Source of the DNA: an archaeon
GTDB taxonomy: Archaea > Aenigmatarchaeota > Aenigmatarchaeia > QMZP01 > JAFGSV01
Length of the DNA: 64,000 bases
Direction: 5' to 3'
NCBI GenBank assembly: GCA_028279705.1
Contig: JANQNF010000016.1
Location: 1-64,000, forward strand
Part shown: positions 1,771 through 60,175 of the stretch, one piece after another
Layout of the letters: every line of letters starts with the position of its first letter
Position numbering within the stretch: the first letter of the stretch is position 1
Made by a program: the position numbers and the translations under genes
Notes under the pieces: model-generated
What the model was told of the DNA's origin: nothing
Databases searched by the model: none
The model's input: only the letters and a program-made list of their open reading frames with translations

Positions 1771-3390
1771 TTATACAGCAGCTTCTTCCGCCTGATGCTG
1801 GTCGAGCATGTCTTGCTGGAACTGTCTAAGTTTAGGCGAAAGAACATCAACTTCACCTTTAATTCCATAGCTCGGCTGAACCTTCTGGAAGCTATCGAAT
1901 TCTTCGATGGTTCTCTGAGAGATAGTAGCGAAACTTTCGTTCAGCGGCCTGAAACCTTCGAAGTCAGGGTTGTTGCATCGGCGCAATACGGGGTCAAAGT
2001 ACAACACACGAGCATCTTTGTCATCAGATACTTCCGATGTGTGGAATACCGAAGGACCAGTGAAGCACGCAACACCATCGCGTACTAGAACAGTCTTGCC
2101 CGGCACACTCATCTTTGCCGGAGTGTCGGATAGCTTGCAAACGATTTCATCTTCCGAACCAGCAGCACACAACTTGTATGCGCTTGAGAAGATATCTCGT
2201 GTGGAAGTATTACGCAGCCAGCCACCTACACCAAAGATACCCCAGCCGACGCTGTTGAAACCTTCATCGAATAGACCGCCGAAGACGTCGTCAACCTTGT
2301 GGGGGTTCATCGAGTCGCCCTGAATGAATCGAAGGTTAGTGGCGCTGGCACGCTCTGCTCCATCGTGTAGCCCAGCTTCGTATGCCTGTTGGGCGATAAA
2401 CAAACAGTTCTCGTAGAAGTCTCCGCTGTCGGGCCTAGCTACGATGGTTCCCGCTGCTCGCTGTGCCATGGCTTTCAGATGGTTGCGAACAGCACGGTGG
2501 AAGTTGTAGCAGTCGGCAACATAGCTTGCGATACCGCCATTTGTATCAGCACCAAAGATAGCTTCGTAAGCTTCCTCTTCATTTAGATGGCCCTGAACAA
2601 TACGATGAGCAAGAGCCAAGATGCTAGTTCCTGTCGGACGCTCTGCTCCGCGCTCCATAGCAGCAAAAGCCGCATTGAACGTGTCTGTGCCATGGAACAC
2701 CAGCAGGTGAGCCATGCCGAGCAGCTCAGACTCTTCTGCACAAGAGCTTGCCCGCATACCGAAGTCATGAATGAAGAATCGAGCCATCGCATCGAACTCT
2801 TTGATATCGTCGGTGGTCAACTCATCCATGCCGATGTTGTACTCGTTGTATTTGTTTCTACCAAACTCTTCTCGAATTCGGTTTAACCAATGGCGGCAGA
2901 TGGTGGCACGAGCACTCATGGTGCTAACCATGCCAAGCATGACAGCTTCAATGTGTGCAGCAATTTCGCCAAATCCCTTACCCATTGATTCAACCTGCAC
3001 AACCGGTTCGTACGGGAAGAAAGTCGAACCTTCCGGTAGTGCAGTAATACGAATGGGGAGAAAGCCGTGACATTCATCAACGACTCTTCTCCACGTTTTC
3101 TCAGGGAAATGCAGAGGTCCACCAAAGCTATGGGCTGTCGCCATGAATTCTTTGGCAGCGTCAATGTCTTCGTGAGTAATCCTCTCCCACAGATGACGAC
3201 GAACGAACTCACTCAAGCCGTAGAAGACCATACGACTGTCTTCTGCAACATTAAGCAAATCATCTGAATCTAGAGGAGAAATACGGTTGGTCAGATTGTA
3301 CACTGATTTCTCAACCGCGCGTTCGCCAGCAAACGCTTCACCTGAAATGGTGTAGGCATCTGCCAGCATCGGCAAAGGTACTTTTCTCAT
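1771..3390 (-). CDS. nadV: nicotinamide phosphoribosyltransferase (NAMPT/NadV-like)
   Basis: 539 aa; N-terminal MLADAYTISG-like start, HDFGMR, DSGD and IQGDS motifs as in NAMPT family; SD-like AAGGTAGG upstream. Confidence 0.8.
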   Translation of the reverse strand: MRKVPLPMLADAYTISGEAFAGERAVEKSVYNLTNRISPLDSDDLLNVAEDSRMVFYGLSEFVRRHLWERITHEDIDAAKEFMATAHSFGGPLHFPEKTWRRVVDECHGFLPIRITALPEGSTFFPYEPVVQVESMGKGFGEIAAHIEAVMLGMVSTMSARATICRHWLNRIREEFGRNKYNEYNIGMDELTTDDIKEFDAMARFFIHDFGMRASSCAEESELLGMAHLLVFHGTDTFNAAFAAMERGAERPTGTSILALAHRIVQGHLNEEEAYEAIFGADTNGGIASYVADCYNFHRAVRNHLKAMAQRAAGTIVARPDSGDFYENCLFIAQQAYEAGLHDGAERASATNLRFIQGDSMNPHKVDDVFGGLFDEGFNSVGWGIFGVGGWLRNTSTRDIFSSAYKLCAAGSEDEIVCKLSDTPAKMSVPGKTVLVRDGVACFTGPSVFHTSEVSDDKDARVLYFDPVLRRCNNPDFEGFRPLNESFATISQRTIEEFDSFQKVQPSYGIKGEVDVLSPKLRQFQQDMLDQHQAEEAAV

Positions 3391-3393
3391 AAC

Positions 3394-4488
3394 CTACCTT
3401 TTATCTGTGGACGAGATGCGCTGGAATTTCTCATCCATGGTGGCGAATGAGCACAGCGCACGAAGCGTAGGCTCAATCTTTTCAATGTCAGCTTCGTCAG
3501 TTAGACGATGGAACACCAAGAACTTATTGCCATTTTCTTTCATCGCAGCAATAAAATCTTGATATTCGAAGTTTTCGTAGTACCGTTCCCAGTCTCCGAT
3601 ACGGAGAATAGTATCGAACCCAACTACGATAGTGCTATTGTTTAGCCAGCGAGCTTTGTCGCAGAATCTTGCGTTGTTTGAAACCGCAATCCACTGTACG
3701 GGCTTAAACCCATCAATGGCTCCGACTAACTTTAGATATCTCTCCTGAAATTGAAGAATATCTAGGTCTGCTTTGTCCGCGTTTCGTACGCTCAATTCCA
3801 ACATGACCGACTGGCCGGTAATCTCGTGCGCTTTCTGGGCCATGGCTGCGTGGCCGTCGTGCCACGGATTGAACGACCCCGGGAAAAGAACTACGGGAGC
3901 TAAATCCTTTGGTAGTGCCACGGGTACGAATGAACCGTCGTCAGGTCGTGTGAGATTCATGCGAGAACTGCGTGAATCGAACATTTCCCAAATCAGCGGA
4001 CTAGCTTCGATGTACTGCTTTGTATCGTTGAGCTTATTCATTAGACCCAACACTTCACCTAAAGCTAGGTAGATGTAAGAAGTAACAATCTCTTCTTGCT
4101 CTTCTCTGTAGTAGTCATCGCTGAACTCCCTAGTGTAGTAGAATAGAGAGTTTGTACCGCGAATGGCAATGTGGAAGAAATGGCGGCGACCTTCCCGCTC
4201 GGGACCAGCCTTACGCAGAGTAGCTGTGACACCTACGCCGTAGTCGTTTGAGTCGCAGAGTCGATATGCTTTATCTGCAAGAAGCAAAGCGGCCTCCCGA
4301 GAACAATACTTCTCAGGCTGGCCCGCAAAGCAGTCGAATAGCTCAGAAGCATATGGAACCACAGCGCCATTGAAGACGCTACTAGCGCCACCGGGTGCTA
4401 AAAAGCTATCGATGAACTTAGTGCCGCCTCCTGTAATTGCTACAGAAAACTTCTTACCAGCTTCAATGATTTGTTCGCGCAGATTCAT
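3394..4488 (-). CDS. bifunctional PncC/CinA-C-like domain + NMN adenylyltransferase
   Basis: 364 aa; N-terminal VAITGGG...GASSVFNGAVVPYASE resembles CinA-C/PncC (AESCTGG...GFVTYSNE); C-terminal LFPGSFNPWHDGH is the nucleotidyltransferase (H/T)xGH motif of NMNAT. Confidence 0.75.
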   Translation of the reverse strand: MNLREQIIEAGKKFSVAITGGGTKFIDSFLAPGGASSVFNGAVVPYASELFDCFAGQPEKYCSREAALLLADKAYRLCDSNDYGVGVTATLRKAGPEREGRRHFFHIAIRGTNSLFYYTREFSDDYYREEQEEIVTSYIYLALGEVLGLMNKLNDTKQYIEASPLIWEMFDSRSSRMNLTRPDDGSFVPVALPKDLAPVVLFPGSFNPWHDGHAAMAQKAHEITGQSVMLELSVRNADKADLDILQFQERYLKLVGAIDGFKPVQWIAVSNNARFCDKARWLNNSTIVVGFDTILRIGDWERYYENFEYQDFIAAMKENGNKFLVFHRLTDEADIEKIEPTLRALCSFATMDEKFQRISSTDKR

Positions 4489-37839: not shown

Positions 37840-38772
37840 CTAGCTCTCGACCGTCTCCTCCTCGACCTCGGCCTCGTCGGCCTCGGACGGGTCGGGCTCG
37901 CGGGAGAGCACCTCGCCGCCGCGCTGGTCCTGCTCCTCGATGTTCGAGGTGCCGCGGTCCTTCGCGCGGTCCAGCCGGGCCTGCTCGGCCTCCAGCTTGC
38001 GGGCCTCCGCCGCTTCGACCTCGCACTCCGCGAGCGTGACGGCCATGTCGCCTCGGAGGTCCGAGATGACGCCGTCGAGGTTGTCGCAGAAGTCCGCGAT
38101 GACCTCGCTCTTGAGGTGCTCGTTGTCCGTGCGGAGCTTGGCGACCACCTTGGCCAGCTCACCCGGCCTCTTTTCGAGGTTCTCGGGGTTGCCGAGCACG
38201 CGCATGAGGGACGCACCCACCTTGGGGTTCACGTCGCCGCGCTGGTTGAGCGCCTTGATTTCCGCGATGGAGAGCGTGGCCCAGTGCCTCTCGTTGCCCT
38301 CCTTGTCGACGGCGATGATACCGTCCATGTCCGCGCGGAAGGGCGTGTCCTCCGTGCGAACGAGACGACCCCAGCCCGCGTTGAGGCGGCCCGGCGTGTA
38401 GAGGGGACCCTTGGTCTGGGCACCCTCGTGCTCCTCGCCCGTGACGAGGAAGTCGTCCCAGATGGCGAGGATGACCGGGGAGGCCTTCCCGCCGTGCAGG
38501 GTCGAGGCGAACGTGAACGCCGGGTTGAGGTAGCTCTTGGCGAGCGTGCCCTTCTCCCCGAAGCCCGCGATGATGAGGCCGTTCTTCATGGCCGCCATCA
38601 GGCCTCGCGGTGCCTGCTTGTCCCCGTCCCGATGAGCCTCCAGCTCGTCGTAGACGTACGAGATGAGGTCACGGAAAGCGACCTGCGCCTCGTTCTCGCC
38701 CTTGGCGAACCCGTCACGGATGAGGGTGACGCGCTCCTCGTTGGGGGACCAGTTGGTGAAATCCTTCATGGA
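37840..38772 (-). CDS. hypothetical protein (very high-GC island, acidic C-terminal tail)
   Basis: start set at MKDFTNWSP; GC far above flanks; antisense ORFs judged spurious. Confidence 0.6.
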   Translation of the reverse strand, partial: SMKDFTNWSPNEERVTLIRDGFAKGENEAQVAFRDLISYVYDELEAHRDGDKQAPRGLMAAMKNGLIIAGFGEKGTLAKSYLNPAFTFASTLHGGKASPVILAIWDDFLVTGEEHEGAQTKGPLYTPGRLNAGWGRLVRTEDTPFRADMDGIIAVDKEGNERHWATLSIAEIKALNQRGDVNPKVGASLMRVLGNPENLEKRPGELAKVVAKLRTDNEHLKSEVIADFCDNLDGVISDLRGDMAVTLAECEVEAAEARKLEAEQARLDRAKDRGTSNIEEQDQRGGEVLSREPDPSEADEAEVEEETVES

Positions 38773-38925
38773 ATTTCCTCTATGCTTAGACCAACTGATG
38801 AGGTTTCTGACCGTTCGTACGCGCGGAAGGAGTCGAACGCTCCTCGATTGCCGCACACACGCAACGCGCCTCTAGCTCAGTCGGCTGTCGGCAAGTTTCG
38901 TCTAAATTTAGATGGAGTGACGTCT

Positions 38926-39079
38926 CCTTGAGGTGGGCCGCAACCTTCAGGTGGGCTCTCACCTTGAGGTTCCCCGGTACCTTCAGGTGGACTGCTACCT
39001 TGAGGTGGCGTCCTACCTTCACAAAGCCCGAACCTCGCGTCCGGGTTGACCTTCGAGTGGTGACCTTCAGAGTAGGGAA
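38926..39079. repeat. tandem array of about 8 imperfect 18-bp repeats (CCTTSAGGTGG core)
   Basis: units CCTTGAGGTGGGCCGCAA / CCTTCAGGTGGGCTCTCA / CCTTGAGGTTCCCCGGTA / CCTTCAGGTGGACTGCTA / CCTTGAGGTGGCGTCCTA then degenerate units; ORFs across it translate to HLKV or TFRW repeats and are artefacts. Confidence 0.8.
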
Positions 39080-39357
39080 CATTTCCGTTGGAAGTATAGC
39101 AAGCGCCGTGCCAACTATATATTGCGCTTTGAGGTAGCAATAACCACAATATCTTGTATGCCTAGCGTCGTACAGTATGTCATGGCGGCAAACGGTCTAT
39201 GTCATTTCAGCAGAGCGGTCATAAGTCTATATCTGACAAGCACTTACGTCGGTGTGAGGTGTTTGTCATTTCGGCATGGTCCTCGGTCATTCCACCTAGA
39301 GGTCGTATGCAGCCTCAAGGTCCGGCAATCGGTGTGCCAATTGCTCATTCACAAAGT

Positions 39358-39395
39358 ATGCCATATGGTTTTTTTGTAGCCTCATGAGACAGTGA
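39358..39395 (+). repeat. conserved intergenic element (short variant)
   Basis: AGTATGCCATATGG...CATGAGACAG. Confidence 0.4.
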
Positions 39396-39484
39396 CCTCA
39401 TACAGCCTTGGAAGGTGAAACTTTGACCGGAAGGTGGGACTTTGGGAAGGCCTATCATAAATTCTCGAAAAGTCAAATTATAAA

Positions 39485-39530
39485 AGTATGCCAATGGGAG
39501 CAAATGACTCAAGATGAGACGTGCCAATAT
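39485..39530 (+). repeat. conserved intergenic element copy A
   Basis: AGTATGCCAATGGG...GATGAGACGTGCC followed by CCTCAAGGT motifs. Confidence 0.45.
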
Positions 39531-39766
39531 GACACGCCTCAAGGTCGGGCTTGGTGTGTATGTGGTATGTGTCCTCAAGGTGCGGCGGGCGGTGGCCTCG
39601 TTGAACAAAGCCACCTCTACCCTACGTGTGATTGTCCTTGATGCGGTCAAGTTCCTCGATAAGGTCTTGTAGCTCGAACTGGTAGCCACCTCTGATATAG
39701 ATGGCGCAATCTTCTAGGGCTTCCTTGGCTTTTTGGAAGGCCCGTTCCTTAGCTCTTTCTTCCATG

Positions 39767-39979
39767 TTATTTTACCTCAATGACGTCGTCGCGCCAAGTG
39801 ATGAAGTAGATTTCCCCTGTTTCCTTGTCGAACATATCTAGGTTGCGGGTTAGCTTCTCCTCTCCGCGAGCTGCCCGCACCCTATTAAGTGCGAAGGTAC
39901 CTATGACTTCGTTCTCAAACCAGAATTTCTGGAGAGGCGGGCGCACGTGCCAAACGAAGGGTAGGCTTAGCATTGTCAT
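39767..39979 (-). CDS. hypothetical protein
   Basis: 70 aa. Confidence 0.45.
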   Translation of the reverse strand: MTMLSLPFVWHVRPPLQKFWFENEVIGTFALNRVRAARGEEKLTRNLDMFDKETGEIYFITWRDDVIEVK

Positions 39980-40278
39980 GCGGCCTCTCCTGCCTCGAAC
40001 GTGACCGCCTGTACGTCCACAACGATATCCTCAGTCTCGTCGGGAAACTCGCTGATGTGGAGGTAGTGGAAACCATCCTCGTCGTCGCGTGTGTGACTCA
40101 CCGGAAGGGTCATCCACCCTTGGAACTTGCGAATGATGAAGGAGTCGGGCTTGCCCTTGGTAAGCCACTGGAGAACGACTAGGTACCTCAGCAGGCGCTT
40201 CTCGGCTGCCCTCTTATCCTTCAGGAGACCTTCGCGGGCCTCGTTGATTTTCTTCAGTAGAGCGGGTCGAATCTTCAT
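39976..40278 (-). CDS. hypothetical protein
   Basis: 100 aa. Confidence 0.5.
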   Translation of the reverse strand: MKIRPALLKKINEAREGLLKDKRAAEKRLLRYLVVLQWLTKGKPDSFIIRKFQGWMTLPVSHTRDDEDGFHYLHISEFPDETEDIVVDVQAVTFEAGEAA

Positions 40279-40511
40279 ATCTGCACCTTCGCCAGCTCCA
40301 TAAGCTGACCCGTGTGTGTGACCTTGGAAACAAAGAGGACGGCCAAGGGCTCACGTCCTCCAAGCAACATCTTGACGTGTACCTCAATGGACCAGCCTAG
40401 GTAGCTGAAGCCAAACGGGTGATGCGGTCTGTCTGAGGTGAAGAACCGTTCCTTGGCTATTTCAGCACAAGCCATTCTAGCCTCGTGGAGAGGGTCCCTA
40501 GGTATCGGCAT
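40275..40511 (-). CDS. hypothetical protein
   Basis: 78 aa. Confidence 0.45.
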   Translation of the reverse strand: MPIPRDPLHEARMACAEIAKERFFTSDRPHHPFGFSYLGWSIEVHVKMLLGGREPLAVLFVSKVTHTGQLMELAKVQI

Positions 40512-40851
40512 CGGTCTGCTCCTTCGGAATCTCCACCTGAAACGAGCGTGTCACTTCGAGGTTACGCTTGGGCAGCATCAAACGGCGTGCCCTCTTCTCA
40601 CCCGGTAGCTTGGGGTTCAGCGTCACCTTCTCCTTGGTGTGCTCGTCTAGGCGGTAGACGTTCAGTATGAGTTCGGCCTCGTAGTGTTCGAGCTTGTCGG
40701 TCACCTTGCCGCGGATAAGCTCAGCCACGAATACGCCTTCGTGGTGTCTAAATCCGCAAGCTGTCTGTTCCTTGAGGACCTGTAGGTTAAACCTACTAAT
40801 GGCCTTCTCGACCAGCTCTTGATTGAGGTCGGCTGTTACTTCGTATGACAT
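40498..40851 (-). CDS. hypothetical protein
   Basis: 117 aa. Confidence 0.5.
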   Translation of the reverse strand: MSYEVTADLNQELVEKAISRFNLQVLKEQTACGFRHHEGVFVAELIRGKVTDKLEHYEAELILNVYRLDEHTKEKVTLNPKLPGEKRARRLMLPKRNLEVTRSFQVEIPKEQTDADT

Positions 40852-40947
40852 AAGTTCACCTATATAGAGGATATCACGACTTGAGCCGAAAGCAAGTTGT
40901 ATTTTTTAGACATCTCATAATGAGCCATGCCAAACTTGAAATAAATA

Positions 40948-41000
40948 AGTATGCCAAAGAGGGCGTTTGGCTCAACTTGGTACGTATTATTATGAGACCC
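40948..41000 (+). repeat. conserved intergenic element copy B
   Basis: AGTATGCCAAAGAGG...TACGTATTATTATGAGACCC followed by CCTCAAGGT x2 and CCTTGAGG. Confidence 0.45.
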
Positions 41001-41150
41001 CTCAAGGTGCTTGGTGTGTTGGTCTTATGGGCCTCAAGGTCAGGCGGGCGCTCGCCTCATTGAACGGTACACCCTTGAGGATGCGCAAGGCGCACGAAAA
41101 AAGGGGAGGCTACGCGCCTCCCCGAGCAACAAAGGAGTCAGCACCTAGGT

Positions 41151-41432
41151 CTAGAGGTCGCGGACCATATGGCCTTGCCAATCGCCAGCGACGTAGACAA
41201 AGAAGTTGAGGCGGTCGTCGATGAGTCGTACCTCCACCTGAACCTCCTCGTCGTCGTCGAACAGCGGGAACGTCGTGTCCTCCGCGTAGCCGTTCGGGCA
41301 CCTCTCCTTGTAGCGCCTCCACAGGCACACCTCTAGTAGCTTCTGCTTGAGCCTGTCGCCATCGGCAAAAGCCTCACGGATGCGGTCGATAGCCTCTCTG
41401 CTCAGAGGCGGCGTGTCATTCTCAATTCCCAT
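41151..41432 (-). CDS. hypothetical protein
   Basis: 93 aa, GC-rich. Confidence 0.5.
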   Translation of the reverse strand: MGIENDTPPLSREAIDRIREAFADGDRLKQKLLEVCLWRRYKERCPNGYAEDTTFPLFDDDEEVQVEVRLIDDRLNFFVYVAGDWQGHMVRDL

Positions 41433-41709
41433 AGCTCAACTCCTCCGCAGCCTGACGCCGCGCCTTCTCGTAATACATAGCTTCCGCCATGTACCTCATA
41501 ATGAGCATGGCAGCGTGGTCTCGGATATCCTCGCACGGGTCATCGATGAAGGTCTCAGCCTGCCTCATCATATATTCGGCCCGTAGTTTTGCATGGTAGG
41601 ACAGGGAGGCCCGCCGAATGGCGAGCTTCCTCCAGTCTACGCCTCTATCGAAGTTAACCCGTCGCATTAGCTGTGCTCCGGGCAAGTGAGGGAGAGGCCA
41701 CACATGCAT
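41422..41709 (-). CDS. hypothetical protein
   Basis: 95 aa. Confidence 0.45.
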   Translation of the reverse strand: MHVWPLPHLPGAQLMRRVNFDRGVDWRKLAIRRASLSYHAKLRAEYMMRQAETFIDDPCEDIRDHAAMLIMRYMAEAMYYEKARRQAAEELSYGN

Positions 41710-41934
41710 CTCGATTCGGGAAGGTTCTCACGCGGGAGGGAGAATACCGCTCCCACATTGAAGCCTTCGACTTGCGTGTGAGGCACGGCGATGATGTATC
41801 GCGCGAAGTCCTCAAGGTGCGGCCATTCCTGAATCGCACCCTTGATAGCCTCTTCCGGGGTTTCTGCGCTAACGTCTGTTTGGTAGAGTAGCTCCCGGTC
41901 GGAGGTGATGCGGTAGATGCTGAAACGTACCACC
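41667..41934 (-). CDS. hypothetical protein (GTG start)
   Basis: GTG preceded by AAGGAGGTG SD at 5-nt spacing. Confidence 0.45.
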
Positions 41935-42132
41935 CTACACCTCCTTGTCCGCGAACGGGTACTTGTGCGCCACCTTGAAGTAGGCGTCCATGAGCTTGGC
42001 AGGCTGGAACCCGAGGGTACGGTTGAGGTCCCGCACGTATTCGACCAGCTTAAGCTCAGTCGCCTCAGAGGCGGTACCGGCAAGTATCTGCCGCCGCCAG
42101 TTGAGCAAGGTTGATTCGGAAGGCTGTGACAT
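41935..42132 (-). CDS. hypothetical protein
   Basis: 65 aa. Confidence 0.5.
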   Translation of the reverse strand: MSQPSESTLLNWRRQILAGTASEATELKLVEYVRDLNRTLGFQPAKLMDAYFKVAHKYPFADKEV

Positions 42133-42221
42133 TTTGACTCCTATTCGTTGCTACTAAGAGTATAGCCGGGATTGAGCGGGAAGCCACCCAATCCCGGTTT
42201 TCGTGGTCTCAGTATGAGACG

Positions 42222-42485
42222 CTAGCTCTTGGCGACCTTCCCGCGCTTGACTTCGACGGTCAGCGGGAGGTGGATGGTCTCCGTGTAGAGGCCAATCTTG
42301 TCCTTGAACGCCTTGCCCAAGTACACCTTGCCCGTCTCCTCCTCGCGCACGACGACCAGCTTGGAGAAGTAAGACTTCCCCGCCGCCTTGCTCTCTTCGA
42401 GGACGTCGGCCACCAGCGTCAGAACCTCCTCGGGCTTCGTACCCTTCTTCACCGTGAGCGCCTTGCCGTTAGTCTGCGTAGCCAT
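42222..42485 (-). CDS. small conserved protein, copy 1 of a duplicated gene
   Basis: 87 aa, about 80% identical to product of 44168..44422. Confidence 0.55.
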   Translation of the reverse strand: MATQTNGKALTVKKGTKPEEVLTLVADVLEESKAAGKSYFSKLVVVREEETGKVYLGKAFKDKIGLYTETIHLPLTVEVKRGKVAKS

Positions 42486-42696
42486 TTCTGACTCCTGTTG
42501 TTCGCTAGGCCCTATTGCCTATTCACTACAAGGATACCAGCTTGGGGTAAGAAAGCAAAAACATTCTGAGGCTTGGTGTGTATCGGTGTATCGTTTCGGG
42601 ACGGGCCGAAGGCACATAGATTAAACCTAGAGGTTGCATTCGGCTGAGCCGTCTTCCTCAAGGCAAGGTGGGCCTCAGCGCATACCATATGGCTGT

Positions 42697-42750
42697 GCGT
42701 TGTCAAGTTTCTAATAGTATGCCAATGGACCAGAATGGCGCAAAATGATA
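42697..42750 (+). repeat. conserved intergenic element copy C
   Basis: AGTATGCCAATGGACC...GATACGTCTCATTATGAGACAG. Confidence 0.45.
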
Positions 42751-43112
42751 CGTCTCATTATGAGACAGCAAGGGCAAAAAAAAGTGGAGGCGACTGCGTT
42801 TCTGGGAGGTCGCTAGCGCGTGTGATTCCTCTGCGCCAACAGGCTGCCTCGTCTCTGCGTTCCGAGGTTCGACAAGCCTTTTCTCTAATCGCCTAGGTAC
42901 CTTCAGCGATTCTTGAGGATGCCGATTCGTGTTGAGAAACGGAGCGAGGGAGCCGTAGGCCGTTGCGCCTTGACGTCCGCTGTGTCCGTCGCCTCCGTTT
43001 GTCTCCCGGAGACACTAGTAGAATACCATGATTCCCCTGATATGCAAGCAAAAAGCAAAAAATATTTCAGCCTTGGGCATACCACACAGTAGCCGGGTAG
43101 TCAAAATATAAT

Positions 43113-43165
43113 ACTATGCCAAACGGGCCGTTTGCACCAAAATAGTACGTATCAAAATGAGACAC
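43113..43165 (+). repeat. conserved intergenic element copy D
   Basis: ACTATGCCAAACGGG...AGTACGTATCAAAATGAGACAC, preceded by GCATACCACACAGT. Confidence 0.45.
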
Positions 43166-43363
43166 TGAGGCGGCGGCGTATCATTTAGATACACACTACC
43201 TCTTGGCCTTCTCGCGCGTGATAGCCCAGTATGCCTCGTTAAGATAGCCTACGCCTAGACGTTTGTTATCGGCCATCCACTTGGCTAGAGCCTTGCGCTG
43301 ATTCTTTTGACCCTTGATTTTCATTGTATTAAAGTAGGCCGGGAGGCGAGTCCCACGTTGGGA

Positions 43364-43702
43364 CTACCTTGTATTCCTCCCGGAGCCTACCGAAGAGTTC
43401 AAAGAAGTGGGGGAGGCGGGAGCCTCCCCCGTGCGTACGTTCTCAACACAGCGGGAAGAATCGGAATTGGAAAGGGAATCGGAACAACGACCTTCTTGCG
43501 CAGCCTCGTATTCGTCGTACGCGGTACGAATCGGGCGCGCACCTCCAGCTTTGCCGCATCTGCGGCAGAAAGACAACACCTCGGTCGGAAAGCCCAAGGC
43601 GTCGGCAAGCAGCACAACCCAACGCCTTCTGACGTTGACCTTGCACTGACAGCCGTCGCACCTTGTGTGCGTCCGCGTCCGAATGAATGTTGTGTAGTCC
43701 AT
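43364..43702 (-). CDS. hypothetical zinc-ribbon protein
   Basis: 112 aa; CDGCQC...CRRCG; GC-rich region with many overlapping frames. Confidence 0.35.
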   Translation of the reverse strand: MDYTTFIRTRTHTRCDGCQCKVNVRRRWVVLLADALGFPTEVLSFCRRCGKAGGARPIRTAYDEYEAAQEGRCSDSLSNSDSSRCVENVRTGEAPASPTSLNSSVGSGRNTR

Positions 43703-43706
43703 TTCT

Positions 43707-44006
43707 CTAGTCCACCCGTAGTCTACCCGTCATTGTCCGCGTGGGCAAGCCTGCCGGATAATCTTTTGCGTCCGTCCGTCTCATCATGATACAGGTCCCG
43801 TCCAGCAAGGTGTACTCTGCCTTGATTACGAAGGGTACCTCGATGGGCTTGCCAGCCTCTCGGGTCGGCCTTCGCTTCTGTCGGCATACGCTCCGGTATT
43901 TCATGGGTAAGCCTTTCGTGCTTACCCCCCTAAACCTCACACCTATACTATCATCTAAAGTTAAATCCGCAAGCCTAGTTTGATATAGTATCCCATAGTG
44001 GGACAT
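43707..44006 (-). CDS. hypothetical protein
   Basis: 99 aa; start immediately downstream (minus sense) of element copy E. Confidence 0.45.
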   Translation of the reverse strand: MSHYGILYQTRLADLTLDDSIGVRFRGVSTKGLPMKYRSVCRQKRRPTREAGKPIEVPFVIKAEYTLLDGTCIMMRRTDAKDYPAGLPTRTMTGRLRVD

Positions 44007-44024
44007 GCCATGCTTGAATTATAT

Positions 44025-44105
44025 TACTGTGCCAATTGGCCCGAATGCCCCAAAATAGAACGTCTCAATATGGTACACCGGCCGGGCGTCTCAGTATGAG
44101 ACACA
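44025..44105 (+). repeat. conserved intergenic element copy E
   Basis: ACTGTGCCAATTGGC...GAACGTCTCAATATGG...CAGTATGAGACAC. Confidence 0.45.
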
Positions 44106-44110
44106 CACGA

Positions 44111-44147
44111 TAAAAGAAAAGGGCCGGGTACTCTTGACCCGGCCCGA
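44111..44147 (-). terminator. rho-independent terminator
   Basis: GGGCCGGGUCAAGAGUACCCGGCCC followed by UUUUCUUUU on minus strand, just downstream of 44168..44422. Confidence 0.55.
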
Positions 44148-44167
44148 TTCTGTGGTAGGCGCGTGGG

Positions 44168-44422
44168 CTAGGACTTGGCAATCTTGCCCCGCTTGACCTC
44201 GACCTGCAACGGCAGGTGCATGGCCTCGACGTACAGCCCGATGCGGTCCTTGAACGCCTTCCCGAGGTAGACCTTGCCGGTCTCCTCTTCGCGGACGACG
44301 ACCTGCTTCGAGTAGTAGGACTTGCCCTCCGCTTTGGACTTTTCGAGTTCGTCCGCAACCAGAGTGAGAACCGCTTCCGGCTTGGTTCCCTTTTTGACAG
44401 TGAGTGCTTTTCCGTTGGCCAT
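44168..44422 (-). CDS. small conserved protein, copy 2 of a duplicated gene
   Basis: start set at MANGKALTVKK with TTAGGAG SD; paralog of 42222..42485. Confidence 0.55.
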   Translation of the reverse strand: MANGKALTVKKGTKPEAVLTLVADELEKSKAEGKSYYSKQVVVREEETGKVYLGKAFKDRIGLYVEAMHLPLQVEVKRGKIAKS

Positions 44423-44548
44423 TGTGCTAACTCCTAAGTTTGGGTTACTTGCTTCACCTACATAGTATCCCGTAGTGCTAGGCAAGCAATTGGTTTTTTT
44501 GGTTTGTTTGTGAGGCGTATCAAGGTGAGACTGGGCGTGCATACCACA

Positions 44549-44627
44549 CAGTGTGCCAATAGCCAATTATATTAGTGTGCCAATCAACCCTTTTGTATCA
44601 AGAATATACGTATCAATATGAGACACC
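44549..44627 (+). repeat. conserved intergenic element copy F
   Basis: GCATACCACACAGTGTGCCAATAGCC...AGTGTGCCAATCAACC...ATACGTATCAATATGAGACAC. Confidence 0.45.
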
Positions 44628-44765
44628 CGCGCGGCGGGCGAAGTGTCCAATAAACAGGACACCTCCCGCACTAGTATAGCCAAGCGTAGACAGTGTGTGC
44701 ATAGTAGCATACCGCACACAAGGCTACGATAGTCCAGAAGTTTTTGAAGATAAAGCGTAGCATTG

Positions 44766-45047
44766 TTAGACAATCCCTAGTGTGATGAGGTGCATGGTAG
44801 CAATGACAGTGTAGATACCCACTAGTGCGAGTGACCCATATCGAGCCATCTGCTTATGGCGATAGGCATACAGGAGAGTGATGCAGAATGAGACAAGGGC
44901 GATTTTGAGCCAAAAGAGATTCATAGGATTGCTATGCGCCATGTCTCGAAGGAGAACGTTCCCCTCTGAGACAATGCCTAGGTAGAGGCCGATGGCGGTA
45001 GCGTAGCCGTCCCACGCATTGAGAAGAAGAAGAATCAAGTGTCTCAT
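44766..45047 (-). CDS. membrane protein
   Basis: internal Met start MRHLILLLL; three TM helices. Confidence 0.45.
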   Translation of the reverse strand: MRHLILLLLNAWDGYATAIGLYLGIVSEGNVLLRDMAHSNPMNLFWLKIALVSFCITLLYAYRHKQMARYGSLALVGIYTVIATMHLITLGIV

Positions 45048-45048
45048 T

Positions 45049-45195
45049 TTAAGCCTCGCTCTGGTAGTAGTCCCAATCCGAGTCAGTCTGTTTCCGCTCG
45101 GGTTCGTCCGCGTGGCATTCGTGGCAGATGCCCGAAGCCTTCTCATCCTGATACAGTTCGCAGCCGCAAACGTCGCATTCGTAGTTTTCCACCAT
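45049..45195 (-). CDS. small zinc-ribbon protein (48 aa)
   Basis: MVENYECDVCGCELYQDEKASGICHECHADEPE...; not in the 60-aa-cutoff ORF track; coordinates approximate. Confidence 0.35.
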   Translation of the reverse strand: MVENYECDVCGCELYQDEKASGICHECHADEPERKQTDSDWDYYQSEA

Positions 45196-45204
45196 TGTCT
45201 CCTT

Positions 45205-45561
45205 CTAAGACACCTGCTCGTTAGTGCGAATGTCCATAATGTAGTGATAGGTGCGGTTTTCGTGGTACTCCGCGCCTCCGCGACCCGTCGCAACCTCCGT
45301 GCCGATGCCGGTCCGATGGTCGCGCTTGCTGCGCTCGACCGTCTCAAGGCGGGACAGTTTCTCTCGCGCCTCTTCGATGGTCCGCGCCCAGCCTACGGTA
45401 CGCTTGCTTGTCCCATATCGAGAATCGACTGCCACGATATGATAGGGTGAAGACAGTTTGCCCGTACCTCGGCCCGTTGCGAAGTTTGCACGTTCCGTCT
45501 TATTGTGAGACAGCACGATTCCCTGCGAGGCAAGAAATTCTTTTGCAATCCGACTAGCCAT
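45205..45561 (-). CDS. hypothetical protein
   Basis: internal Met start MASRIAKEF; last minus-strand gene before strand switch. Confidence 0.5.
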   Translation of the reverse strand: MASRIAKEFLASQGIVLSHNKTERANFATGRGTGKLSSPYHIVAVDSRYGTSKRTVGWARTIEEAREKLSRLETVERSKRDHRTGIGTEVATGRGGAEYHENRTYHYIMDIRTNEQVS

Positions 45562-45702
45562 TAGCCAATCCCCCACGCGATAGCGACAGACAGCGCGAAA
45601 CCGAAAGTTGCGGCGAGCGCAACCAAGTAGGACAAGCGGTTGATTCTCATTGCACCTATATAGTACCTCATGGGCGCAAGTAGGCAAGCGGGGAAATTAT
45701 TT

Positions 45703-45770
45703 TTGTATGCCATTCGCGCGTTTTGTTTCAAAATGAGCATAATGCTTTTTTCTCATAACGAGACACACCG
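45703..45770 (+). repeat. conserved intergenic element copy G in the divergent region
   Basis: TGTATGCCATTCGCGCG...TTTCAAAATGAGCAT...ATAACGAGACACACC upstream of the plus-strand late genes. Confidence 0.4.
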
Positions 45771-45942
45771 GGGGGAGTTTTTTGAGATTTTTCTTGATTT
45801 TGTGGGAATGACCGGGACGGAGGTCCCACGCAATAAAATCCTCGGGCCTCAAGAAGTGTGTATCCAGCACACCAACGGCACCGCCATCCGTGAAACCTCC
45901 GGTGCCCCTTGCAATTCTCTAAGGAACTATCTATATATATGC

Positions 45943-46428
45943 ATGAACGAAAATGAACCAACACCAAGCGGCATTGACACCGTAGAAATCTCGGAAGAGC
46001 TTGCGCGCATGAAAGCGCAGAAGCACAAGTTCAGCTATTATGACGCAGACGATATAGCACAGGAAATCTGGCTGTCTGTTAATAAGGCCGCTAAGAAATT
46101 CGACGGTGACCGCGTGAAAAAGGGTAAGCGCCCGCTATCATTCTTCAATGTCGCTTCAGAGAATGCGCTAAAGAATCTAAAGCGCGACAATAAGATTGCA
46201 GACAACGTGAATCTCGGTGACACGCCGGTACAGGAGGTTGACCATACCATAGCTGGGGAAATGCGTGCCCGCGAGTTGCGCCAGTTCATTCTAGACAAGC
46301 TGCCAGATAAGTTGAAAGAGCCATTTATAAGGCTGGTAGACTATGGTGGCGAAGGCGTCTCGCAGTATATTAAGACCAAGATTCGTCATGCAGTCGCAGA
46401 GATTTTAGAGGAATTCAATGGCGAATGA
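45943..46428 (+). CDS. sigma-70 family-like transcription factor (regions 2 and 4)
   Basis: start set at MNENEPT; DDIAQEIWLSVNKAAKKFD resembles sigma region 2; C-terminal LDKLPDKLKEPFIRLVDYGGEGVSQYIKTKIRHAV resembles region 4 HTH; first gene of plus-strand module. Confidence 0.5.
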   Translation: MNENEPTPSGIDTVEISEELARMKAQKHKFSYYDADDIAQEIWLSVNKAAKKFDGDRVKKGKRPLSFFNVASENALKNLKRDNKIADNVNLGDTPVQEVDHTIAGEMRARELRQFILDKLPDKLKEPFIRLVDYGGEGVSQYIKTKIRHAVAEILEEFNGE

Positions 46429-46731
46429 GATTGTGAGCGTCTCGATTCCACAGATGGATGATGACATTGATATTATTATGGATATCGAGGCTGTTTTAAG
46501 AGTTCGCGGCTTTCATGTTATCGACCCAGAAATTAATCGGGCCACTAATGAAATCGTATATCGCTTTCAAAAGGTGAACGATGGAGAATCTTAAACTCCG
46601 TCTTCCCGTGCTTTGGGTTGAGACGAAACTGAAAGATGGCGTACATCCCCGCTATATCTTCAAGATTCTTGGCTACGAGATGATTGGCGATGAACGCTGG
46701 GACGATGACCCAGACTACATCTATTTTATCT

Positions 46732-59848: not shown

Positions 59849-60175
59849 ATGGAAATGAGCATTTTGTCCAAAAAGCGCAGTTATACGCGAGTCACAGTCA
59901 GACAAGTCATGCGACTGTATAATCAAGGCATGAACTTTAGTCAGATAGCGGAACATCTCGGGTGTGCGCGAAATACAGTACGAGCCAAAGTTCGAGAATA
60001 TATTGAAACGACTGGTAAGCCCGTACCGACGAGAACCAAACCCGGATTAGGATTCCGAGATATCACAAAAGTTCTTCGATGGTACAAAGCGGGGAAGAAA
60101 GTTTCTGATATAGCGGAACACTTTAATGTAACTGCGAGTTGCATATATAAGATTCTTCAGAAGTACGGGGATTAA
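59849..60175 (+). CDS. tandem helix-turn-helix DNA-binding protein
   Basis: 108 aa; two repeats of GMNFSQIAEHLGCARNTVRAKV / KVSDIAEHFNVTASCIYKIL. Confidence 0.5.
   Translation: MEMSILSKKRSYTRVTVRQVMRLYNQGMNFSQIAEHLGCARNTVRAKVREYIETTGKPVPTRTKPGLGFRDITKVLRWYKAGKKVSDIAEHFNVTASCIYKILQKYGD

What the first reader, a model, noticed from the sequence alone, without database searches (positions are those of the whole stretch)
39358..45770. Family of about 8 conserved 50-60-bp intergenic elements (TATGCCAA ... TACGTATCAAnATGAGACAC)
Copies at about 39358, 39485, 40948, 42697, 43113, 44025, 44549 and 45703 share a TGCCAA box, a 30-37-nt spacer ending in TACGT(A/C)TCA(A/T)(A/T)ATGAGACAC, and often an upstream GCATACCACACAGT box. 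All are in the same orientation. Most lie upstream (minus sense) of small minus-strand genes, including both copies of the duplicated gene; one lies in the divergent region ahead of the plus-strand late module. In minus orientation they read TTGGCA(C/T)AC followed by TAATATAAT-like A/T tracts. This looks like a phage-specific promoter class (possibly for the sigma-like factor at 45943..46428) or a set of transcript start/processing sites. The elements do not fit a sigma70 -35/-10 spacing.
Basis: seen in the sequence. Interest (0 to 1): 0.65.

Follow-up and report, generated by a model that had tools for sequence, protein, structure and literature searches.

The report
Repeated phage early-promoter cassette upstream module
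The repeats are real: six full and one partial copy of a rigid 62-bp DNA module mark the start of each small early-gene unit in an uncultured ~176-kb phage. They most likely form the regulatory upstream half of ordinary bacterial-type promoters rather than a new kind of promoter.

Summary
A model built only from related phages finds six full copies and one partial copy in the window.

Read on the minus strand, the module is gapless: two abutting 15-bp dyads (GTCTCA-N3-TGAnAC, GTnnnA-N3-TGAnnC), an 11-nt linker, an invariant TTGGCA and an A/T tract (CTAtTaTATT). Conservation stops there.

It survives in phages whose neighbouring sigma-like protein is only 48% identical. It is not coding, since stops occur in every frame. 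It is not a hairpin, since the dyads show no covariation.

In about half of 31 copies a -35 (TTGAC/TTGCC) starts 18-19 nt after the start of TTGGCA. Another GTCTCA dyad then sits at the predicted start site. A second promoter, TTGCTT-N16-TAsTAT-TAGGTG, precedes each first gene.

I read the module as the upstream regulatory part of a repeated early-promoter cassette. The dyads look like operators for an unidentified dimeric regulator. A self-contained promoter for the phage's ECF-like sigma is not excluded, at about 0.2. No transcript or binding data exist.

The parts
44565..44626 (-). Full module: dyad 1 (44624-44610), dyad 2, linker, TTGGCA (44583-44578), A/T tract
   Evidence: Weight matrix 68.8 bits; Infernal 58.1 bits, E 1e-16; row 1 of alignment A3
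44017..44078 (-). Full module; TTGGCA at 44035-44030
   Evidence: 71.3 bits; 61.2 bits, E 1e-17
43104..43165 (-). Full module, best copy; TTGGCA at 43122-43117
   Evidence: 79.0 bits; 66.9 bits, E 1.7e-19
42707..42768 (-). Full module with a perfect dyad (42766-42752); TTGGCA at 42725-42720
   Evidence: 61.5 bits; 58.2 bits; dyad with 0 mismatches
40939..41000 (-). Full module; TTGGCA at 40957-40952
   Evidence: 61.9 bits; 54.3 bits
39476..39537 (-). Full module; TTGGCA at 39494-39489
   Evidence: 59.0 bits; 55.2 bits
45694..45756 (-). Truncated module in the divergent region, facing the first minus-strand gene: one dyad-like unit plus ATGGCATAC
   Evidence: 17.3 bits; 25.8 bits, E 1e-6, model positions 22-65; orthologous in 5 genomes
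39330..39395 (-). Variant, not a module: half dyad GTCTCATGAGGC, A7, ATGGCATACT, then TTGGCACACC.
   Evidence: No model hit at E<=1; same arrangement in L002 at 3363-3401
44538..44566 (-). Promoter-like pair directly after a module: -35 TTGGCT (44566-44561), 17 nt, TGTGG-TATGCA (-10 at 44543-44538).
   Evidence: Read; fixed offsets in 31 modules
43076..43104 (-). -35 TTGACT (43104-43099), 17 nt, TGTGG-TATGCC (-10 at 43081-43076)
42679..42706 (-). -35 TTGACA (42706-42701), 16 nt, TATGG-TATGCG (-10 at 42684-42679)
39449..39476 (-). -35 TTGACT (39476-39471), 16 nt, TATGA-TAGGCC (-10 at 39454-39449)
44517..44531 (-). Dyad GTCTCACCTTGATAC. It starts at the predicted +1 of the upstream promoter, 42 nt before the -35 of the gene-proximal promoter.
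44088..44102 (.). Perfect dyad GTCTCAGTATGAGAC after the terminator of the duplicated gene and just before the next module
42206..42220 (.). Identical perfect dyad immediately after the stop codon of the other copy of the duplicated gene
40912..40926 (-). Dyad GGCTCATTATGAGAT fused to a second TTGGCA box, 31 nt before the -35 of the gene-proximal promoter. The same arrangement occurs in L001, L002 and L003.
45653..45687 (-). Gene-proximal promoter: TTGCCT-16-TACTAT-a-TAGGTG, then ATG at 45650
44455..44489 (-). Gene-proximal promoter: TTGCTT-16-TACTAT-g-TAGGTG, ahead of the 84-aa gene (ATG at 44431)
43940..43972 (-). Gene-proximal promoter: TTGCGG-16-TAGTAT-AGGTG
43014..43047 (-). Gene-proximal-type promoter: TTGCAT-16-TATTCT-actagt, ahead of an ORF-less stretch that starts with GTCTCCGGGAGAC
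42531..42558 (-). Gene-proximal promoter: TTGCTT-16-TATCCT, ahead of the 87-aa gene (ATG at 42485)
40857..40895 (-). Gene-proximal promoter: TTGCTT-16-TATCCT-ctata-TAGGTG, then ATG at 40851
44121..44145 (-). Intrinsic terminator (9-bp stem, T tail) closing the unit upstream of module 44078
41103..41123 (-). Intrinsic terminator closing the unit upstream of module 41000
43409..43430 (-). Intrinsic terminator-like hairpin

Best explanation
The element is the upstream regulatory half of a repeated early-promoter cassette that acts as double-stranded DNA and is read on the minus strand.

One full cassette runs in this order:
1. A terminator or gene end.
2. Two abutting 15-bp dyads, GTCTCA-N3-TGAnAC and GTnnnA-N3-TGAnnC.
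3. An 11-nt linker beginning CA.
4. The invariant TTGGCA.
5. An A/T tract.
6. A -35 (TTGACT or TTGCCT).
7. A 16-17 nt spacer.
8. A TG-extended -10 (TGTGG-TATgc).
9. A third GTCTCA dyad at the predicted start site.
10. A second promoter, TTGCTT-16-TAsTAT-TAGGTG.
11. The gene or genes, then a terminator.

Inferred mechanism. Host RNA polymerase with its primary sigma starts transcription at these -35/-10 pairs soon after infection. Counted from the predicted start, TTGGCA plus the A/T tract cover about -53 to -36, the place of an UP element. The dyads are centred near -72 and -87, at about +8 of the upstream promoter, and near -61 of the gene-proximal promoter. I read them as operators for a conserved dimeric DNA-binding regulator, probably phage-encoded, that sets the level or timing of all early units together. 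That could be shut-off, or a switch from the upstream promoter to the gene-proximal one.

Shown: the anatomy, the fixed spacings, the strand and location bias, conservation in relatives, and the absence of coding or hairpin signal.

Inferred: which polymerase and sigma are used, where transcripts start, that a protein binds the dyads and TTGGCA, and whether it activates or represses.
For: - Gapless alignment of 28 copies from 5 genomes. Invariant columns are G20, G30, C34, G48, G49, C50, A51 and T55; conservation ends right after TATATT.
- The first dyad starts exactly 41 nt before TTGGCA in 20 boxes, and a second unit starts 26 nt before it in 10.
- All copies share the strand of the early genes and lie in intergenic gaps of the small-gene cluster next to the sigma-like gene. 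This holds in the window and in every relative.
- The module persists in L008 and L009, where the sigma homologue is 48% identical, together with TTGAC(T/A) and TGTGGTAT at the same offsets.
- In 31 modules, TTG[AC]C occurs at +18/19 in 16 and at most once at any other offset. TG[GA]TA[TG] occurs at +37/38 in 10. A further dyad starts at +52-55 in 9.
- In the orthologous first unit of 5 genomes, the dyad, the ATGGCATAC box, the -35 TTGC, the -10 and TAGGTG are the conserved blocks.
- Of 16 gene-proximal promoters, 8 have a dyad starting 31-34 nt before the -35.
- Minus-strand intrinsic terminators bound several units.
- The sigma gene's own promoter, TTGCWW-17-TATATATA, shows that this phage uses ordinary -35/-10 promoters of the same TTGC type.
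- Dyads show no covariation: 74.1% of cells paired against 75.6% in shuffles, and the central pair is unpaired in 19/28. This fits a protein-binding dyad.
- No reading frame is open through all copies.
Against: - No transcript 5' ends and no binding data exist.
- About half of the modules have no recognisable -35 at +18/19, yet they are as well conserved as the others: 44035 scores 71 bits and 40957 scores 62 bits. So the module has a function that does not depend on that -35.
- Conservation ends at a TAnnnT hexamer, present in 19/28 copies. That is what a self-contained promoter would look like.
- The -10 hexamers after the module (TATGCC, TATGCG, TAGGCC) lack the usual final T.
- The simple sigma-70 scan found no more sites than in shuffles, 6 against 5.4, because these hexamers fall below its threshold.
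- TTGGCA is not A/T-rich and so is not a typical UP element.
- No binder is identified. The early proteins have no family hits, and the model of the duplicated 87-aa protein is poor.
- The host is unknown.
Confidence: 0.6

Rival explanations
1. The 62-bp module is itself a complete promoter of a phage-specific class. Its -10-like TAtTaT sits at the 3' edge, with the start about 7 nt further on. TTGGCA acts as an extended upstream contact, and the two dyads, which would then be centred near -40 and -55, bind an activator. It would be used by polymerase carrying the phage ECF-like sigma (45943-46428), or by another phage-directed polymerase, as a middle promoter placed ahead of host-type early promoters.
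For: Conservation stops exactly after the TAnnnT/A-T tract, and TAnnnT is present in 19/28 copies. Modules without a downstream -35 are equally conserved. The dyads would then sit at activator-like positions that replace a missing -35. The sigma-like protein is conserved next to the cluster, and its model matches only sigma factors, mostly ECF. Module and sigma clade co-occur: present at 48% or more identity, absent in L013 and L014 at 26-29%. The genome is about 176 kb and two thirds of it was not seen.
Against: No -35 partner lies at 16-18 nt. TTGGCA is only 3 nt from the hexamer, so it fits no two-element sigma-70-family layout. ECF signatures are absent: AAC in 8/28, CGT in 0/28. The sigma gene's own promoter carries no module. 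A -35 at exactly +18/19 in half of the copies is unexplained if transcription starts at about +21. No phage RNA polymerase family appeared among the 25 (of 38) Pfam families listed for 60 window ORFs or in the per-protein scans.
Confidence: 0.2
2. The dyads act as hairpins. Either they are RNA stem-loops at transcript ends that affect stability or processing, or they are single-stranded DNA hairpin promoters of the kind N4 virion RNA polymerase uses.
For: The 6-bp arms with a 3-nt centre resemble the N4 early-promoter hairpin geometry (from memory). Several dyads start at a predicted +1. One was flagged as a weak terminator-like hairpin.
Against: There is no compensatory change: pairing is no better than in shuffles (464 of 500 shuffles at least as high), and the central pair is broken in 19/28 copies on both strands. 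The same holds for the weak third dyad. Rfam gives no match. No ORF in the window exceeds 717 aa.
Confidence: 0.05
3. The module is a DNA site for a process other than transcription, such as replication initiation, DNA ejection control, packaging, or a decoy or recognition site for a restriction-type enzyme. CGTCTC is the BsmBI site (from memory).
For: The sites are many, clustered and protein-site-like. GTCTC/GAGAC is 2.3 times denser in the early region than elsewhere. Tandem CCACCTSAAGGT repeats lie nearby.
Against: There is one copy per transcription unit, always on the gene strand. Copies sit between terminator and gene start, at fixed distance from -35/-10 elements. That pattern is the signature of transcription control.
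Confidence: 0.08
4. The repeats are parts of a small plus-strand protein family (the 77-80-aa ORFs sharing TPQGAWCV).
For: Two plus-strand ORFs (39408-39641, 40967-41209) overlap two copies and share a short peptide.
Against: Each of the six frames has a stop in at least 10 of 28 copies, and the best plus-sense frame in 11 of 28. The shared peptide comes from a separate DNA box, CCTCAAGG..GCTTGGTGTGT, which adjoins only some copies. No family hits were found.
Confidence: 0.01

Closest known systems
Clustered early promoters of large lytic phages, such as the T4 early promoters with extended upstream consensus and the SPO1 host-takeover module with many early promoter/terminator units (from memory)
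   Same: Many strong promoters are packed into a few kb of small ORFan genes. Each unit is often closed by a terminator. The consensus extends well upstream of -35. Host polymerase is the presumed reader.
   Different: Here the upstream part is a rigid 62-bp block with two dyads and an invariant TTGGCA, not just A-tracts. Two promoters stand in tandem per unit. No experimental data exist.
Phage phi29 p4-controlled promoter region (A2c/A2b/A3 switch) and lambda OR (PR/PRM) (from memory)
   Same: Repeated dyad or inverted-repeat sites stand at fixed positions. One bound protein can block one promoter and help a neighbouring one. Here a single dyad lies at about +8 of the upstream promoter and about -61 of the downstream one.
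   Different: The site sequences are unrelated. The arrangement is copied 6-10 times per genome rather than once. Both promoters face the same way. The binder is unknown.
Class I activator-dependent promoters (sites near -61.5, -71.5 or -92.5) and UP elements contacted by the alpha C-terminal domain (from memory)
   Same: Dyad centres fall near -61 and -72, and the A/T tract lies at about -44 to -36.
   Different: The first dyad, near -87, is out of phase. TTGGCA is G/C-containing and more conserved than any UP element. Dyads also occur at +1.
Sigma-54 promoters (TGGCAC-N5-TTGCW)
   Same: TGGCA(C/T) matches the -24 element in 27/28 copies, with dyads upstream.
   Different: The obligatory GC at -12 is absent in all 28. 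The dyads abut the box instead of lying 80-150 bp away.
Mycobacteriophage stoperators and start-associated sequences (from memory)
   Same: Short conserved motifs recur in many intergenic gaps in one orientation relative to transcription and serve one phage-encoded regulator.
   Different: Those are 13-17-bp single sites spread over the whole genome of temperate phages. Here there is a 62-bp composite confined to the early cluster.

Membership tests
Sigma-70/sigma-A type promoter (whole cassette) | -35 hexamer like TTGACA and -10 hexamer like TATAAT, separated by 16-18 nt | tested here: inconclusive
   TTG[AC]C lies at +18/19 in 16/31 modules, and a TG-extended TA(T/G) -10 follows 16-17 nt later in 10/31. 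The hexamers after the module often lack the final T, and the generic scan is not enriched. Gene-proximal promoters TTGCTT-16-TAsTAT fit better.
Sigma-70/sigma-A type promoter (module alone) | A -35/-10 pair inside the 62 bp | tested here: not met
   TAnnnT is present in 19/28, but the nearest TTG lies 21 nt upstream and TTGGCA is only 3 nt away.
UP element | A/T-rich tract between about -59 and -38 | tested here: inconclusive
   CTAtTaTATT falls at about -44 to -35. The -53 to -48 part is the invariant TTGGCA, which is not A/T-rich.
Sigma-54 promoter | GG at -24 and GC at -12, spaced as TGGCAC-N5-TTGC | tested here: not met
   TGGCAY in 27/28; GC at the -12 position in 0/28.
ECF sigma promoter | -35 containing AAC and -10 containing CGT, 16-17 nt apart (the common ECF pattern, from memory) | tested here: not met
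   AAC at the end of dyad 2 in 8/28; CGT in the TTGGCA region in 0/28. Phage sigmas can have private specificities, so this does not exclude the phage factor.
N4-type hairpin promoter | Hairpin with a 5-7-bp stem and 3-nt loop, maintained by selection | tested here: not met
   Pairing is 74.1% against 75.6% in shuffles; the central pair is unpaired in 19/28.
N4-type hairpin promoter | A giant virion RNA polymerase gene | not testable with these tools
   No ORF above 717 aa in the 64-kb window. The rest of the 175,863-bp contig could not be fetched.
T7-like single-subunit polymerase promoter | A roughly 20-bp conserved block ending in an A/T-rich start region, plus a T7-like polymerase gene | tested here: inconclusive
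   GGCACACTA resembles the K11/SP6 promoter core (from memory). No RNA polymerase family appeared among the 25 (of 38) Pfam families listed for 60 window ORFs or in the per-protein scans. About 112 kb of the genome was not seen.
Operator array of a dimeric DNA-binding regulator | Dyad symmetry, several copies, fixed positions relative to promoters | tested here: met
   6-3-6 dyads: 9 in the window against 0.22 expected. They stand at -41/-26 from TTGGCA, at the predicted +1, and 31-34 nt before -35 elements.
Operator array of a dimeric DNA-binding regulator | A cognate binding protein | not testable with these tools
   The only candidate is a 108-aa protein with two HTH motifs at 59849-60172. 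Early proteins have no family hits.
Known RNA family | Match to an Rfam model | tested here: not met
   No hit at E<=1 in 38500-46500.

The most novel reading that the evidence does not exclude
The 62-bp module is a self-contained promoter of a new class. It would have a long single-block element (TTGGCA-N3-TAtTaT) flanked by two activator dyads. It would be read by host core polymerase carrying the phage's divergent ECF-like sigma, or by an unseen phage polymerase in the remaining ~112 kb of the genome. That would give these ~170-kb uncultured phages a private transcription programme for their host-takeover genes.
Probability: 0.2. Interest if true: 0.7.

Novelty: new variant of a known kind. 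Interest (0 to 1): 0.42.

Why it matters
Clusters of early promoters are a known feature of large lytic phages. This group of uncultured ~170-kb phages has no cultured relative, so the cassette supplies two things. First, it gives a ready map of their early transcription units. Second, it gives a precise, testable regulatory code: two dyads, TTGGCA and tandem promoters, copied 6-10 times per genome and kept across phages whose neighbouring sigma-like protein is only 48% identical. The rigidity points to one or more unknown DNA-binding factors acting on all early genes at once. Finding that factor would explain how these phages time host takeover. The cassettes may also be useful as strong, co-regulated promoter parts. 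They appear to be the units in which early genes are duplicated and shuffled, as with the 84/87-aa gene pair.

Tried and rejected
- Cultured relatives: none by DNA in INPHARED, and none for the sigma or portal proteins. The large terminase is only 25% identical to Bacillus phage terminases.
- IMG/VR: the sigma protein scan and two module patterns found nothing.
- GTDB genomes: no relative, so no host clue.
- Rfam: nothing. Six tRNAs were found, none in the region.
- Literature: searches for TTGGCA with phage early promoters, and for GTCTCA/TGAGAC, found nothing relevant.
- PDB sequence search with the sigma profile: nothing.
- Early proteins against Pfam and PHROGs: no significant hit. The 84-aa protein has only a weak B3-like hint, E 0.06.
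- AlphaFold model of the duplicated 87-aa protein: pLDDT 59, with no meaningful fold match.
- TTGGCA as a -35 element: no conserved -10 lies 16-18 nt downstream.
- A plus-strand promoter inside the module: only a poor -35 and a 15-nt spacer, judged by eye.
- A Bacteroidetes-type -33/-7 reading: spacing is wrong.
- A third dyad, CAWWCG-N3-CGWWTG, ending in the TTG of TTGGCA: weak symmetry and no covariation.
- Repeats upstream of the distant sigma homologues in L013 and L014: none comparable.
- A distinct late-promoter motif for the sigma-like factor: the plus-strand module is almost gap-free, and no repeated motif was seen.

Full report
**1. What is there**

The window is part of an uncultured phage. 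The minus-strand arm (1-45.7 kb) carries tRNAs, NAD-salvage genes and RNA-repair genes. The plus-strand arm starts at a sigma-like gene (45943-46428) and runs into the terminase and structural genes. No cultured phage matches the region by DNA. The sigma-like and portal proteins have no match among cultured phages either, and the large terminase is only 25% identical to Bacillus phage terminases. An exact protein match places the phage on a 175,863-bp NCBI contig.

**2. Checking the observation**

- The repeat finder returned a six-copy, 73-nt family at 39476, 40939, 42707, 43104, 44017 and 44565, with weaker TGCCA-box copies at 39345 and 45694.
- The core GTCTCA-N3-TGAGAC has 9 matches with at most one mismatch against 0.22 expected, all between 39.5 and 45.5 kb.
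- A weight matrix built only from relatives scored six window copies at 59-79 bits and one (45756-45695) at 17 bits. All are on the minus strand, and shuffles never exceeded 5 bits.
- A sequence-only Infernal model gave six full hits (E 1e-15 to 1e-19) and a partial hit at 45694-45737 (E 1e-6).
- That first copy (39330-39395) is a different arrangement: half dyad, A7, ATGGCATACT, TTGGCACACC. L002 has the same arrangement.

**3. Relatives**

Homologues of the sigma-like protein led to syntenic contigs L001, L002, L003 (duplicated as L004 and L005) and L006. More distant ones, L008 and L009 at 48% identity and L013 and L014 at 26-29%, came. In every close relative a cluster of small minus-strand genes with large intergenic gaps lies divergent from the sigma gene.

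**4. Anatomy**

Read on the minus strand, 28 copies from five genomes align without a single gap:

nGGT [GTCTCAtanTGAtAC] [GTnccATTTTGAnnC] AttCGGnnCGA [TTGGCA] taCTAtTaTATT

- Invariant columns are G20, G30, C34, G48, G49, C50, A51 and T55.
- Conservation ends abruptly after TATATT.
- The first dyad starts exactly 41 nt before TTGGCA in 20 boxes. A second dyad-like unit starts 26 nt before it in 10.
- The module is still present in L008 and L009 and is absent from L013 and L014.

**5. What it is not**

- Not coding. Each of the six frames has stops in 10-28 of the 28 copies.
- Not a selected hairpin. The dyads pair in 74.1% of cells against 75.6% in shuffles, and the central pair is broken in 19 of 28. 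A weak third dyad ending in the TTG of TTGGCA shows no covariation either. Rfam has no match.
- Not a sigma-54 promoter. TGGCAY is present in 27/28 but GC at -12 in 0/28.
- Not a typical ECF promoter. AAC occurs in 8/28 and CGT in 0/28.

**6. What surrounds it**

- In 31 full modules, TTG[AC]C occurs 18 or 19 nt after the start of TTGGCA in 16 copies and at most once at any other offset.
- TG[GA]TA[TG] occurs at +37/38 in 10 copies, and a further GTCTCA-type dyad starts at +52-55 in 9.
- This amounts to a -35 (TTGACT), a 16-17-nt spacer and a TG-extended -10 (TGTGG-TATGC), with a dyad beginning at the expected start site.
- L009, at 48% sigma identity, keeps the whole arrangement.
- Each first gene is also preceded by a second promoter-like element, TTGC(T/C)T-16-TA(C/G/T)nnT-(0-5)-TAGGTG.
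- Eight of 16 such elements across genomes have a dyad starting 31-34 nt before the -35.
- In the orthologous first unit of five genomes, the conserved blocks are the dyad, ATGGCATAC, the -35 TTGC, the -10 and TAGGTG. The -35 starts 18 nt after the box in three genomes.
- Canonical minus-strand terminators lie at 44145-44121, 43430-43409 and 41123-41103.
- The sigma gene's own promoter is conserved as TTGCWW-17-TATATATA, followed 5 nt later by ATG, with no module. So this phage does use ordinary -35/-10 promoters of the TTGC type.

**7. Best explanation (confidence 0.6)**

The module is the upstream regulatory half of a repeated early-promoter cassette. Counted from the predicted start:

- TTGGCA and the A/T tract occupy about -53 to -36.
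- The two dyads are centred near -72 and -87.
- A third dyad covers +1 to +15 of the upstream promoter. The same dyad lies near -61 of the gene-proximal promoter.

That geometry suggests a dimeric regulator that acts on all early units together. It might shut them off, or switch initiation from the upstream promoter to the downstream one. The dyad is kept in phages that have diverged to 48% identity in a neighbouring protein, so I think a phage-encoded binder more likely than a host one. This is inference. The only clear DNA-binding candidate in the window is a 108-aa protein with two helix-turn-helix motifs at 59849-60172. The early proteins have no family hits.

**8. Main rival (0.2)**

The module may be a complete promoter in its own right.

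- For: conservation ends at a TAnnnT hexamer (19/28). Modules without a downstream -35 are equally conserved. The sigma-like protein's model matches only sigma factors, mostly ECF-type, though weakly at E 0.03-0.2.
- Against: TTGGCA lies 3 nt from the hexamer, and no partner element sits at 16-18 nt. The fixed -35 at +18/19 would be unexplained. The sigma gene is not preceded by a module.

Hairpin, non-transcriptional and coding readings are minor (about 0.05, 0.08 and 0.01).

**9. Comparison and novelty**

Dense early promoter/terminator units with extended upstream consensus are known from T4 and SPO1. Dyad-controlled promoter switches are known from phi29 and lambda. Both comparisons are from memory. 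The new feature is the specific rigid composite and its 6-10-fold repetition in an uncharacterised phage group. I found no matching description in the searchable literature and no copy in IMG/VR. I rate it a new variant of a known kind, of moderate interest.

**10. Limits**

- There are no expression or binding data.
- The host is unknown; the GTDB scan was empty.
- Two thirds of the genome was not seen.
- The -10 hexamers after the module are weak, and the generic promoter scan was not enriched.

Noticed in passing
window 42776-43013 (minus strand): An ORF-less stretch of about 240 nt lies between a promoter-like element (TTGCAT-16-TATTCT) and a T8 run. It starts with GTCTCCGGGAGAC. A 9-bp stem (GGAGGCGAC/GTCGCCTCC) joins its two ends just before the U-run. 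It folds better than all 200 shuffles (z = -2.99). It is a candidate small RNA; Rfam has no match.
   Followed up: partly
window 45909-45945 (plus strand); the same position in L001, L002 and L006: The sigma-like gene has a conserved promoter, TTGCWW-17-TATATATA, with the ATG only 5 nt after the -10. Its mRNA is therefore probably leaderless.
   Followed up: partly
window 45770-45786: GGGGGGAGTTTTTTGAG (minus sense CTCAAAAAACTCCCCCC) is conserved in the divergent region of four genomes, directly upstream of the first dyad of the early arm. Its function is unknown.
   Followed up: no
window 38857-39621, especially 38923-39012: A 770-nt ORF-poor region lies ahead of the 338-aa gene. It holds 18-nt tandem repeats (CCACCTSAAGGT-type) and several CCTTGAGG and ACACACCAAGC boxes. 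Similar CCTnnAGGT repeats occur in L006.
   Followed up: partly
window 42222-42485 and 44168-44431 (minus strand): A duplicated 84/87-aa lysine-rich gene (77% DNA identity). Each copy has its own module and gene-proximal promoter, and each is followed by the identical perfect dyad GTCTCAGTATGAGAC. It is conserved in relatives. The model has low confidence (pLDDT 59) and no fold match.
   Followed up: partly
window 59849-60172 (plus strand): A 108-aa protein with two tandem helix-turn-helix motifs (HTH_7/HTH_23, E 9e-15) sits alone after a terminator inside the structural module. It is a candidate regulator.
   Followed up: partly
window 44640-44663 (minus strand); also L001, L002 and L003: A GTGTCC-N8-GGACAC hairpin followed by TTCGCCgCCCGC precedes the first dyad in about 8 modules across four genomes. 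It has no T-run, so it is not an obvious terminator.
   Followed up: no
whole window: The phage sits on a 175,863-bp NCBI contig. It carries NAMPT, an NMN adenylyltransferase-like protein, a T4-type RNA ligase, an HD-kinase, an RNA-repair HAD domain, a radical SAM protein, two DUF5658 proteins and six tRNAs.
   Followed up: partly
window 39300-45800 compared with the rest: GTCTC/GAGAC, the core of the BsmBI/BsmAI recognition sites (from memory), occurs 4.9 times per kb in the early region against 2.1 per kb elsewhere, because of the dyads.
   Followed up: no
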